A stretch of DNA of 62,838 nt, filler included, from Collodictyon triciliatum (lineage: Eukaryota): NCBI GenBank assembly GCA_043381765.1. It is 4 parts of 4 records of this genome, joined end to end, with 100 filler letters (N's around TTAATTAATTAA, not from the genome) between each part and the next. Parts side by side here need not be neighbours in the genome. Positions count along the whole stretch, not along the records: positions 1 to 26,198 come from JBHJMP010000566.1; 3 more parts are not named here. One strand, given 5' to 3'. Shown piece by piece: positions 25,010 through 25,839 of this stretch. Below the pieces are notes generated by a model, which was not told the origin of the DNA, did not search any database, and saw only the letters and a list, made by a program, of their open reading frames with translations. Made by a program: the position numbers and the translations under genes. Numbering within the stretch: the stretch's first letter is position 1; each line of letters starts with the position of its first letter.

Positions 25010-25839
25010 TTAAAAGAACTTGAGTATATTCTTAGCGCTGGTAAAGTCCCTTGTCAAGAATACGCTTTGTTAGCTTTCTGAGCGATTACATTATATACAT
25101 ATGAGACATCTATACACTTCTTTTTTTGTTTTTCCTTTCATTTTCATATATTCCAGTTCTTTTTCACAGTTGCAACAAATCTCGGACGTTCTAAATTCAC
25201 CTACACTAACTGTTTCAAAACGTTTGGATAGTATTTTTCGTAATCCCCTTCCGATTGTTGCCATAAAATGTTTCATCGGACATTTTGTGCTCAAGTCTCC
25301 ATACGCCAGTACAACATCCATGCCAAATGTCTTTTCGATTCCATCCATAAACAATTGTTCACTCCTTTTTGTATCGATATATTGTCTCCACCTCATCTTT
25401 CGAAAAATTACTTGTTCATAAAATCTGGATAGTTCTATCTGGTGTCTTGATTTCATAGATACATATTCTCGAAATTTTTCATAACCGACTGTGCATGAAT
25501 TATATTTACTCAGTTATATCTCTAAATCGATTAAAAATACTCTTGATGTCCCAAACCGCTGATTCTCTTCAAAAGTCATTTGACCAAAAAGAAATAGCAC
25601 TTTGTAAACCTGTTGCCATGCATACCCCTGAAGCCATGTACTTTTTTCTCGCGCAAAAGGGTATTTTGTGATTTTAAGTGAGTTTTGCTATCATGTCTTC
25701 TTTGGTGTGCCGTGTAAAGTAATGTCTCACCTTTCTCATCCACCATGTAAACAAAATTAAACTTGCCTGCGTCCACTCCAACTTTTTTTGTCGCTAATAA
25801 AGATAACTGCTCTTCGGAAAGTTCGTCTATATAGACATA
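25010..25839 (-). pseudogene. Fanzor1 / TnpB-family RuvC nuclease pseudogene, C-terminal half only
   Basis: RuvC-I IDELSEEQLSLLATKKVGVDAGK (Asp 25773-25771) followed by LLYTAHQRR; FRKMRWRQY and VVLAYGD; RuvC-II VSVGEFRTS (Glu 25198-25196); Zn ribbon CCNC..CI*C; RuvC-III FLTRDFTSAKNIL (Asp 25048-25046). Three premature TAA codons and a frameshifting ~100-bp insertion. Confidence 0.88.

What the first reader, a model, noticed from the sequence alone, without database searches (positions are those of the whole stretch)
25010..25839. Decayed eukaryotic RNA-guided nuclease (Fanzor1/TnpB-like) with all three RuvC acidic residues still readable
Seen: two short ORF fragments plus read-through of stops give VGVDAGK..LLYTAHQRR..FRKMRWRQY..LAYGD..VGEFRTS..CCNC..CI*C..TRDFTSAKNIL. 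Known: this D/E/Zn-finger/D layout is the TnpB/Fanzor RuvC core, and the intervening motifs resemble Fanzor1 proteins of eukaryotes and giant viruses. Inference: this copy is dead (three TAA stops, an insertion, no N-terminal WED/REC half), but it implies a Fanzor family existed in this genome and intact relatives may remain. The system class is already described; this lineage may not be.
Basis: partly seen in the sequence, partly recalled or inferred. Interest (0 to 1): 0.8.

Follow-up and report, generated by a model that had tools for sequence, protein, structure and literature searches.

The report
Dead Fanzor1 nuclease gene fragment
This is the broken back half of a Fanzor1 gene, a known RNA-guided DNA cutter carried by mobile elements of eukaryotes and giant viruses, lying dead between ordinary cell genes, so it is an ordinary genomic fossil.

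Summary
On the minus strand, window 25839 to 24934 is collinear with residues 341-642 of P0003, an intact 648-aa relative (193 of 299 codons identical). P0003 and a profile of 20 full-length relatives match only the three solved Fanzor1 structures (E 3e-90, 9e-85, 1.5e-72).

The relic's D, E and D fall on SpuFz1 D383, E541 and D606 (residues quoted from papers). The copy is dead:
- four in-frame TAA stops and three +1-nt frameshifts
- 7 of 32 highly conserved columns changed
- no trace of the N-terminal 340 residues anywhere in the 62.8 kb

Short contigs from other metagenome studies reproduce 3 of 4 stops and 2 of 3 frameshifts.

- The lesions number seven, not three.
- The "insertion" is a lineage-specific insert shared with intact relatives.
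- The relic runs 76 nt further 3'.

Its nearest labelled relatives are giant-virus contigs. I found no transposase or terminal repeats, and no guide RNA could be shown. Whether intact copies exist in this genome is untestable here, because no assembly is held. This is a known kind of element, of low interest.

The parts
24934..25839 (-). Whole Fanzor1 relic (pseudogene fragment), collinear with residues 341-642 of the intact 648-aa relative P0003
   Evidence: Frameshift-aware protein-to-DNA alignment, 193 of 299 codons identical. tblastn HSPs in three successive frames, E 2e-88. HMM hits E 2.2e-68 and 3.2e-14.
25675..25839 (-). Segment 1 (P0003 341-396). It carries the RuvC-I aspartate codon at 25771-25773 in VGVDAG, where the DPG signature has become DAG.
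   Evidence: P0003 D364 aligns to SpuFz1 chain residue 777 = D383 after the 394-residue MBP offset.
25587..25673 (-). Segment 2 (P0003 397-425), reached by a +1-nt frameshift at about 25674. It is part of the roughly 33-aa lineage-specific insert shared with P0003 and P0007.
   Evidence: A 102-nt contig of run X1 covers 25595-25696 with 1 difference and no gap.
24983..25585 (-). Segment 3 (P0003 426-626), reached by a +1-nt frameshift at about 25586. It contains FRKMRWRQY, LAYGD, the RuvC-II glutamate codon 25196-25198 (VGEFRTS), the zinc finger and the RuvC-III aspartate codon 25046-25048 (TRDFTSAKN).
   Evidence: E on SpuFz1 chain 935 = E541; family RD on chain 1000 = D606.
25097..25177 (-). 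Zinc-finger (TNB) cysteines CCNC ... CLICI*C. All cysteines are kept, but a TAA stop lies inside the second CxxC.
   Evidence: C562 and C587 kept. Weak Pfam Cas12f1-like_TNB match, E 1.3, below cut-off.
25514..25516 (-). In-frame TAA stop opposite P0003 S449
   Evidence: Present in a 189-nt contig of run X1 with 0 differences.
25091..25093 (-). In-frame TAA stop opposite P0003 E589
   Evidence: Present in a 169-nt contig of run X2 with 0 differences.
25070..25072 (-). In-frame TAA stop opposite P0003 N596
   Evidence: Present in the same X2 contig.
25010..25012 (-). In-frame TAA stop opposite P0003 L616
   Evidence: Not covered by any laid contig.
24934..24981 (-). Segment 4 (P0003 627-642), reached by a third +1-nt frameshift at about 24982. 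It holds an 11-bp hairpin at about 24945-24971.
24700..24933 (-). 3' flank where a Fanzor guide RNA (omega RNA) scaffold and the element's right end would be expected. Only a weak fold signal; not shown to be an RNA.
   Evidence: 24700-25000(-) folds with z -2.51 and 0 of 100 shuffles as good, while the next 301 nt give z +0.20. No Rfam match. No DNA similarity to 81 fetched loci.
25840..26198 (.). Non-homologous sequence abutting the 5' truncation point: A/G-rich low complexity, a local 23-nt repeat, then (ATT)n and an assembly gap from 26199.

Best explanation
Window 24934-25839 (minus strand) is a 5'-truncated, frameshifted and stop-riddled pseudogene of a Fanzor1 RNA-guided endonuclease. 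It keeps only the C-terminal 45% of the protein: the split RuvC nuclease with its zinc finger.

Shown: the homology, the catalytic-residue mapping, the lesions, and the absence of the N-terminal WED/REC half.

Inferred from the family's published biology: the ancestor was a roughly 650-aa protein that bound a guide RNA (omega RNA) transcribed from its own 3' end and the element's right end. It cut double-stranded DNA next to a short target-adjacent motif using the D/E/D two-metal RuvC site, and so helped its mobile element persist or spread.

This copy cannot make that protein. It lies in a 4.1-kb intergenic stretch between ordinary cellular genes and most likely does nothing now. Its closest relatives are intact environmental proteins (P0003, 65-71% identical). 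Beyond them come Fanzor1 genes on giant-virus contigs, so the element belongs to a sublineage shared between giant viruses and eukaryotic cells.
For: Homology:
- P0001 (C-terminal piece, stops as X) against solved structures: PpFz1 E 3.7e-9, SpuFz1 8.9e-5, GtFz1 1.2e-3.
- P0003 (648 aa) covers 98% of the piece at 71% identity. It matches the three Fanzor1 structures from its N-terminus on (E 2.1e-28 to 3.7e-23).
- A profile of 20 full-length relatives (P0003 plus 19 that I picked from the 150 listed) hits only those three chains at E<=1e-3 (3.1e-90, 9.1e-85, 1.5e-72).
- Family size: 1470 representative clusters at E<=1e-3 and 482 at <=1e-10.

Catalytic mapping:
- SpuFz1 D383, E541 and D606 come from passages read.
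- With the 394-residue MBP offset, chain residue 777 aligns to P0003 D364, 935 to the window's E, and 1000 to the family RD.
- The relic keeps D, E and D at codons starting 25773, 25198 and 25048.

Decay:
- Three frameshifts and four TAA stops.
- 2 of 14 invariant and 5 of 18 near-invariant family columns changed (P365A, E391D, L370F, W523L, Q528P, P534A, N606T).
- No match to profile positions 1-353 anywhere in the window.
- Lesions reproduced in contigs of two other studies: 3 of 4 stops and 2 of 3 frameshifts, with 0-1 differences.

Context:
- Flanking genes are cellular: GT92, a Sel1-repeat protein, an intron-split PDEase_I and an adaptin fragment.

Viral kinship:
- Atlas neighbours are 92-100% Nucleocytoviricota.
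- 111 viral-contig stretches encode relatives.
- In the tree the relic sits with P0003 (support 95), then P0007 (98), then P0005 plus L002, L003 and L045 (94). This group lies inside a 57-row clade (87) with 44 viral rows.
- NCLDV capsid genes were found on 2 of the 2 nearest viral records that could be searched.
Against: - Curated family models score the fragments below cut-off: Pfam OrfB_IS605 20.8 bits against 30.5, Cas12f1-like_TNB 9.7 against 26.3, NCBIfam guided_TnpB 10.6 against 100.
- The N-terminal piece alone finds no solved Fanzor.
- All four stops are TAA, which at first suggested recoding. I tested that and rejected it.
- The truncation junction at 25839/25840 is not bridged by any independent contig and lies about 360 nt from an assembly gap.
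- No element ends, target-site duplication or transposase were found, so 'mobile element' rests on family knowledge alone.
- The tree is a FastTree tree, midpoint-rooted. Only viral rows carry a label, and I fetched labelled DNA only from the viral collection, so 'virus-dominated clade' is partly a sampling effect.
Confidence: 0.94

Rival explanations
1. The gene is alive: the organism reads TAA as an amino acid, so the four TAA 'stops' are sense codons.
For: All four stops in the long frame are TAA. TAA makes up about 41% of stop trinucleotides in the window, so four of four is somewhat unusual. All four stops fall at variable family columns.
Against: - Three +1-nt frameshifts remain whatever the code.
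- Host frames of at least 150 codons end in TAA 10, TAG 5 and TGA 16 times.
- ORFs of 1650, 575, 507 and 496 codons contain no in-frame TAA.
- The residues opposite the stops in P0003 are S, E, N and L, so there is no single meaning.
- The N-terminal 340 residues are missing.
Confidence: 0.01
2. A question of origin rather than of what the relic is: the relic was left by a giant virus (an integrated viral segment, or a viral Fanzor1 element that hopped into the host) rather than by a long-resident cellular transposon.
For: - The nearest labelled relatives are giant-virus contigs.
- 2 of the 2 searchable nearest records carry NCLDV capsid genes.
- DNA-level similarity of 65% over 407 nt to L002, L003 and L045.
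Against: - No viral hallmark was found among the 8 long ORFs of the window that I scanned, nor in the six-frame scan of 23671-27818.
- The flanks are cellular, intron-bearing genes.
- The closest relatives (P0003, P0007, P0160, P0019) are unlabelled and lie on 0.6-2.6-kb contigs of unknown origin.
- Identity to the viral copies is only about 47% at protein level.
- The direction of any transfer cannot be read from a midpoint-rooted tree.
Confidence: 0.25
3. A 'ghost' guide locus: the protein part is dead, but the 3' end still produces an omega RNA that intact Fanzor1 copies elsewhere use in trans.
For: - The 3' 301 nt (24700-25000, minus strand) fold better than all 100 shuffles (z -2.51), while the next 301 nt do not.
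- The 3' end of the gene is retained while the 5' end is lost.
- Protein-less ghost loci with omega RNA are reported in S. punctatus (134 loci; passage).
Against: - The fold signal comes from a single sequence only.
- No Rfam match.
- No similar DNA in 81 loci, so no covariation test was possible.
- No inverted repeats or element end were found.
- A frameshift and a stop lie within the last 100 nt of the coding part.
- No intact copy is known in this genome.
Confidence: 0.06
4. The truncation is an assembly artefact: the real locus has a full-length (though damaged) gene, and the scaffold is misjoined at 25839/25840.
For: Low-complexity sequence, (ATT)n, two N runs and a poly-T tract follow within 360-560 nt. 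No independent contig bridges the junction.
Against: - 25840-26198 is continuous called sequence, not a gap.
- No N-terminal remnant lies beyond the gap or anywhere else in the window.
- Partial Fanzor copies are common in other genomes.
Confidence: 0.07

Closest known systems
Fanzor1 (Fz1) RNA-guided endonucleases with solved structures: Spizellomyces punctatus SpuFz1 (8gkh), Parasitella parasitica PpFz1 (9cf0), Guillardia theta GtFz1 (9cer)
   Same: The RuvC-I/II/III order is the same, with D, E and D on SpuFz1 D383, E541 and D606. It has the CxxC...CxxC zinc finger between RuvC-II and RuvC-III, and the RD-x5-N motif. The intact relative P0003 aligns from its N-terminus through WED/REC to the RuvC.
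   Different: The window copy is only residues 341-642, with four stops and three frameshifts. DPG has become DAG. The sublineage carries a roughly 33-aa insert after RuvC-I that other family members lack. Identity to the solved proteins is low; only profile or phmmer-level matches were found.
Giant-virus (Nucleocytoviricota) Fanzor1 / 'transposase' proteins with DUF8286 (PF26935)
   Same: Length class of about 620-656 aa and the same family by Atlas features (score 0.99). 111 viral-contig stretches encode relatives. The nearest labelled tree neighbours are viral.
   Different: At best 47% identity to P0003. The relic lies in a cellular, intron-bearing gene neighbourhood with no viral hallmark genes.
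Partial Fz genes and 'ghost' loci of S. punctatus (Saito et al. 2023, PMC10432273; passages read)
   Same: A degraded or partial Fanzor locus in a eukaryotic genome.
   Different: The S. punctatus elements have recognisable 30-nt inverted repeats and many near-identical copies. Here no ends were found and only this one copy is visible.
Prokaryotic TnpB (IS200/IS605, IS607) and Fanzor2
   Same: Same RuvC plus zinc-ribbon core. Weak OrfB_IS605 match on the RuvC-I piece (E 4.6e-4).
   Different: Below every curated cut-off. No TnpB or Fanzor2 structure is hit by the fragment or by the family profile at E<=1e-3.

Membership tests
Fanzor1 | RuvC-I aspartate (DPG motif) equivalent to SpuFz1 D383 | tested here: met
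   VGVDAG aligns to P0003 VGVDPG. P0003 D364 aligns to chain 777 = D383. The proline of DPG, invariant in 20 of 20 relatives, is changed to A.
Fanzor1 | RuvC-II glutamate equivalent to SpuFz1 E541 | tested here: met
   The E of VGEFRTS aligns directly to chain residue 935 = E541. It is invariant column E555.
Fanzor1 | RuvC-III aspartate (RD-x5-N) equivalent to SpuFz1 D606 | tested here: met
   The family RD aligns to chain 999-1000 = R605-D606. The relic keeps R603, D604 and N610.
Fanzor1 | Zinc finger (TNB) CxxC...CxxC between RuvC-II and RuvC-III | tested here: met
   CCNC and CLICI*C are kept. A TAA lies inside the second pair.
Fanzor1 | Published sequence signature DPG-x(120,280)-E-x6-[CH]-xx-C-x(10,65)-C-x(5,50)-RD-x5-N (Yoon et al., passage) | tested here: not met
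   The relic read-through fails only because DPG is DAG; it passes with DxG. P0003 passes, as do 45 of 60 unlabelled full-length representatives.
Fanzor1 | N-terminal WED/REC half | tested here: not met
   Absent from the relic and from the whole window. Present in P0003, which aligns to solved Fz1 from residues 4-20 on.
Fanzor1 | Closer to Fanzor1 than to Fanzor2, TnpB or Cas12 | tested here: met
   The only solved structures hit at E<=1e-3 are the three Fz1 proteins (3 of 3 hits).
Fanzor1 | Guide (omega) RNA encoded at the 3' end and right end of the element | tested here: inconclusive
   Fold z -2.51 for 24700-25000(-) against +0.20 for the next stretch. No Rfam match. No comparable DNA for a covariation test.
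Fanzor1 | Element ends (inverted repeats, target-site duplication) or a linked transposase | tested here: not met
   Only low-complexity inverted repeats were found. The 10-nt flanking repeat is reached by 34 of 300 shuffles. No transposase domain appears in the six frames of 23671-27818. The flanks are not repeated in the window.
Fanzor1 | Open reading frame able to give an active nuclease | tested here: not met
   Four stops, three frameshifts and a 5' truncation.
TnpB (prokaryotic OMEGA effector) | Score above the curated family cut-offs (Pfam OrfB_IS605 / Cas12f1-like_TNB; NCBIfam guided_TnpB) | tested here: not met
   20.8 against 30.5 bits, 9.7 against 26.3 bits, 10.6 against 100 bits.

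The most novel reading that the evidence does not exclude
The relic is a footprint of exchange between giant viruses and a freshwater eukaryote. On this reading a compact, insert-bearing Fanzor1 sublineage (the P0003 type, 648 aa) is still intact and circulating in freshwater communities. It moved between virus and host, and the retained 3' end of this copy may still supply a guide RNA in trans.
Probability: 0.12. Interest if true: 0.4.

Novelty: new member of a known kind. Interest (0 to 1): 0.15.

Why it matters
By itself it matters little. Fanzor1 nucleases, their presence in giant viruses, and partial or degraded copies in host genomes are all in print (passages read; listing).

The useful by-products are:
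1. A pointer to an intact 648-aa relative (P0003) and a small sublineage with a roughly 33-aa insert after RuvC-I. This could be screened as a compact genome-editing nuclease.
2. One more data point that this sublineage is shared between giant viruses and cellular genomes.
3. A caution for annotators: two database 'proteins' (P0019 and P0077) are chimeric ORF calls across frameshifted relics.

Tried and rejected
- Own-genome search: no assembly is held, so copy number, intact paralogues and a linked transposase elsewhere could not be tested.
- Earlier scan notes: none for this genome or for P0003.
- N-terminal piece (P0002) against solved structures: only a chance hit, E 1.4.
- Possible N-terminal remnant at 27093-26938 (tblastn with P0004, E 0.16): not confirmed by the family HMM.
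- Flanking 10-nt direct repeat TAGACTAGAT (24846 and 25841) as a target-site duplication: 34 of 300 shuffles reach that length, so it is chance.
- The local 23-nt repeat at 26011 and 26078 as a dispersed element: only those two copies exist, and the flanks are not repeated in the window beyond A/G-rich low complexity.
- TAA recoding: rejected.
- Close relatives' DNA for the 3' end: the metagenome scan gave only a 21%-identical locus, L001. The viral scan with P0003 gave none. The 3' tail has no similarity to 81 loci.
- Rfam: only a chance CrcZ match, E 0.33.
- Sequencing runs: no RNA holder is listed, which says nothing about expression. Three freshwater or lake metagenome runs hold small shares (0.12, 0.09, 0.06). 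No laid contig covers 25697-25879, so the junction is untested.
- Host identity: the Atlas neighbours of the GT92 protein are the large streptophyte clusters. That is a lead only and I did not use it.
- Near-length protein search: only P0160 and P0019 at E<=1e-10 among 52 candidates.
- Structure prediction, fold search and complex prediction were not run, because the sequence matches to solved Fanzor1 structures were already decisive.
- Supplementary files of the papers were not seen. They may list Fanzor1 host taxa and clades that bear on whether this lineage is new.

Full report
**What is there.** The feature lies on the minus strand. YVYIDELSEEQLSLLATKKVGVDAGKFNFVYMVDEKGETLLYTAHQRR... begins at 25839. 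In another frame...FRKMRWRQY...LAYGD...VGEFRTSEICCNC...RCLICI*CNRSES*QSVFLTRDFTSAKNIL runs to about 25010. The window is eukaryotic nuclear DNA: about 36% G+C, rich in microsatellites, with assembly gaps and intron-split genes.

**Is it Fanzor1?** I read the C-terminal piece through its stops with X (P0001). It hits solved Fanzor1 chains directly: Parasitella E 3.7e-9, Spizellomyces 8.9e-5, Guillardia 1.2e-3. Curated models are only weakly matched and fall below their cut-offs (OrfB_IS605 E 4.6e-4, Cas12f1-like_TNB E 1.3, guided_TnpB E 0.24). The N-terminal piece alone finds no solved Fanzor.

A word-indexed search for longer proteins found P0003. It is an intact 648-aa protein, 71% identical over 98% of the piece. 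An exhaustive HMMER search found 1470 representative clusters at E<=1e-3, 482 at <=1e-10 and 13 at <=1e-30. Full-length members are about 620-700 aa.

P0003 aligns to the three solved Fanzor1 proteins from its N-terminus onwards (E 2.1e-28, 2.7e-24, 3.7e-23). I built a profile from 20 full-length relatives: P0003 plus 19 that I chose from the 150 listed. It hits exactly those three structures and nothing else at E<=1e-3 (3.1e-90, 9.1e-85, 1.5e-72). The family is therefore Fanzor1, not Fanzor2 or TnpB.

**Catalytic residues.** The papers give SpuFz1 D383, E541 and D606, with N385 helping to bind metal (passages read in PMC10432273, and PMC11423790). The solved chain is an MBP fusion, and the offset is 394 residues.
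- Chain D777 (followed by P and then N779) aligns to P0003 D364.
- Chain E935 aligns to the window's own E in VGEFRTS.
- Chain R999-D1000 aligns to the family's RD.

In the 20-sequence alignment D364, P365, E555, S559, R603, D604 and N610 are invariant. The relic keeps D (codon from 25773), E (25198) and D (25048), together with the zinc-finger cysteines.

**How broken it is.** A frameshift-aware alignment of P0003 to the minus strand runs from 25839 to 24934 and covers residues 341-642, with 193 of 299 codons identical. It needs:
- three +1-nt frameshifts, at about 25674, 25586 and 24982
- four in-frame TAA stops, at 25516, 25093, 25072 and 25012, opposite S449, E589, N596 and L616
- five single-codon indels

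Of the 14 invariant family columns in range, 2 are changed (P365A, which breaks the DPG signature, and E391D). Of the 18 near-invariant columns, 5 are changed (L370F, W523L, Q528P, P534A, N606T). At one further column (623) the relic agrees with P0003, but both depart from the family majority. The published Fanzor1 pattern (passage) is met by P0003 and by 45 of 60 unlabelled full-length representatives. The relic meets it only if DPG is relaxed to DxG.

Nothing in the 62.8-kb window matches profile positions 1-353 or P0003 residues 1-340, so the WED/REC half is gone.

It is a lineage-specific insert.

**Are the lesions real?** Three freshwater or lake metagenome runs from three studies hold small shares of the stretch. 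When laid:
- A 189-nt contig (25436-25624, 0 differences) and a 102-nt contig (25595-25696, 1 difference) from X1 cover the stop at 25516 and two frameshift sites.
- A 169-nt contig from X2 (25062-25230, 0 differences) covers the stops at 25093 and 25072.

So 3 of 4 stops and 2 of 3 frameshifts recur outside this assembly. The stop at 25012, the frameshift at about 24982 and the truncation junction are not covered.

**Rival: TAA is read as sense.** All four stops being TAA prompted this test. Host frames of at least 150 codons end in TAA 10, TAG 5 and TGA 16 times. ORFs of 1650, 575, 507 and 496 codons have no internal TAA. The residues opposite the stops are four different amino acids, and the frameshifts remain in any case. 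I rejected this rival.

**Context and mobility.** The relic sits in the 4.1-kb gap between a GT92 glycosyltransferase gene (21943-23670) and a 496-aa ORF (27817-29307). Other long ORFs encode a Sel1-repeat protein, an intron-split class-I phosphodiesterase and an adaptin fragment. A six-frame Pfam scan of 23671-27818 shows no transposase. Inverted repeats there are only low-complexity. A 10-nt repeat at both ends is within chance, with 34 of 300 shuffles reaching it. Neither flank is a dispersed repeat in the window. No element boundary can be drawn.

**Guide RNA.** Fanzor guide RNAs come from the 3' end of the gene and the right end of the element (passages). The 301 nt spanning the relic's 3' end and its flank fold better than all 100 shuffles (z -2.51), with an 11-bp hairpin at about 24945-24971. 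The next 301 nt give z +0.20. This comes from a single sequence and is weak. Rfam has nothing, and I could obtain no similar DNA for a covariation test.

**Relatives.**
- Atlas neighbours of P0003 are 'transposase' clusters of about 620-656 aa that are 92-100% Nucleocytoviricota and carry DUF8286.
- A profile scan of viral contigs found 111 stretches that encode relatives. 80 loci were kept, and the best is 47% identical to P0003.
- The tree had 125 rows: the relic, 60 unlabelled representatives of 550-800 aa, P0007, and 63 viral ORFs of at least 500 aa. The other 17 of the 80 loci gave no such ORF and were left out.
- I built it with FastTree on 266 columns and rooted it at the midpoint only.
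- In the tree the relic joins P0003 (support 95), then P0007 (98), then P0005 with viral L002, L003 and L045 (94). This group lies inside a 57-row clade (87) with 44 viral rows.
- The records behind L003 and L045 carry NCLDV major-capsid genes (E 4.9e-55 and 1.7e-38). L002's record was not held.

The sublineage is therefore shared between giant viruses and cells. Direction and timing cannot be read from this tree, and the viral label is the only label I had.

**Other copies.** P0019 (136 aa) and P0077 (84 aa) lie on NCBI contigs of 582 and 513 nt. Their ends match the window's out-of-frame translation of the same stretch, so they are ORF calls across other frameshifted relics. Whether they come from the same genome is unknown. 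The near-length search gave only P0160 and P0019.

**Verdict.** This is a dead, 5'-truncated Fanzor1 pseudogene. Fanzor1, its viral homologues and partial genomic copies are already described (I did not see supplements). It is a new member of a known kind, of low interest.

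Noticed in passing
window 16297-21249 (-): A 1650-aa intronless Sel1-repeat ORF sits in a G+C-rich island (54.6% at 16-18 kb against about 36% for the window). Its composition suggests a foreign (bacterial or viral) origin, or at least an unusual gene.
   Followed up: partly
P0019 and P0077 (NCBI-sourced proteins): Both are chimeric ORF calls across frameshifted Fanzor1 relics. Their odd ends equal the window's out-of-frame translation. 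So further decayed copies exist in some deposited genome and are annotated as proteins.
   Followed up: partly
P0006: One source names this 378-aa Fanzor1 C-terminal fragment '6-pyruvoyl-tetrahydropterin synthase', which is probably a misannotation.
   Followed up: no
window 26011-26033 and 26078-26100 (+): A 23-nt motif occurs twice, 67 nt apart, just upstream of the truncation point and nowhere else in the window (0 of 100 shuffles give 2 matches). Its meaning is unknown.
   Followed up: partly
window 26120-26392 and 34.2-35.0 kb: A long (ATT)n tract, two N runs around a TTAATTAATTAA island, and a roughly 90-nt poly-T tract. There is another N run of about 800 nt near 34.2-35.0 kb. The scaffold is gappy and rich in simple repeats, so local structure should be treated with care.
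   Followed up: no
window 24945-24971 (-): An 11-bp hairpin lies inside the last coding segment of the relic. Its peptide (KKQAVG...) is also conserved in P0003 but not in more distant relatives. That would fit an RNA constraint on the gene's 3' end.
   Followed up: partly
window 2911-6009 (-): A class-I cyclic-nucleotide phosphodiesterase gene is split by at least one intron. The catalytic domain is divided between ORFs 4486-6009 and 2911-3975.
   Followed up: no
window 24400-26190 against runs X1-X3: Near-identical short contigs of this locus occur at low depth in freshwater and lake metagenomes from three studies, which hints that the organism lives in fresh water.
   Followed up: partly
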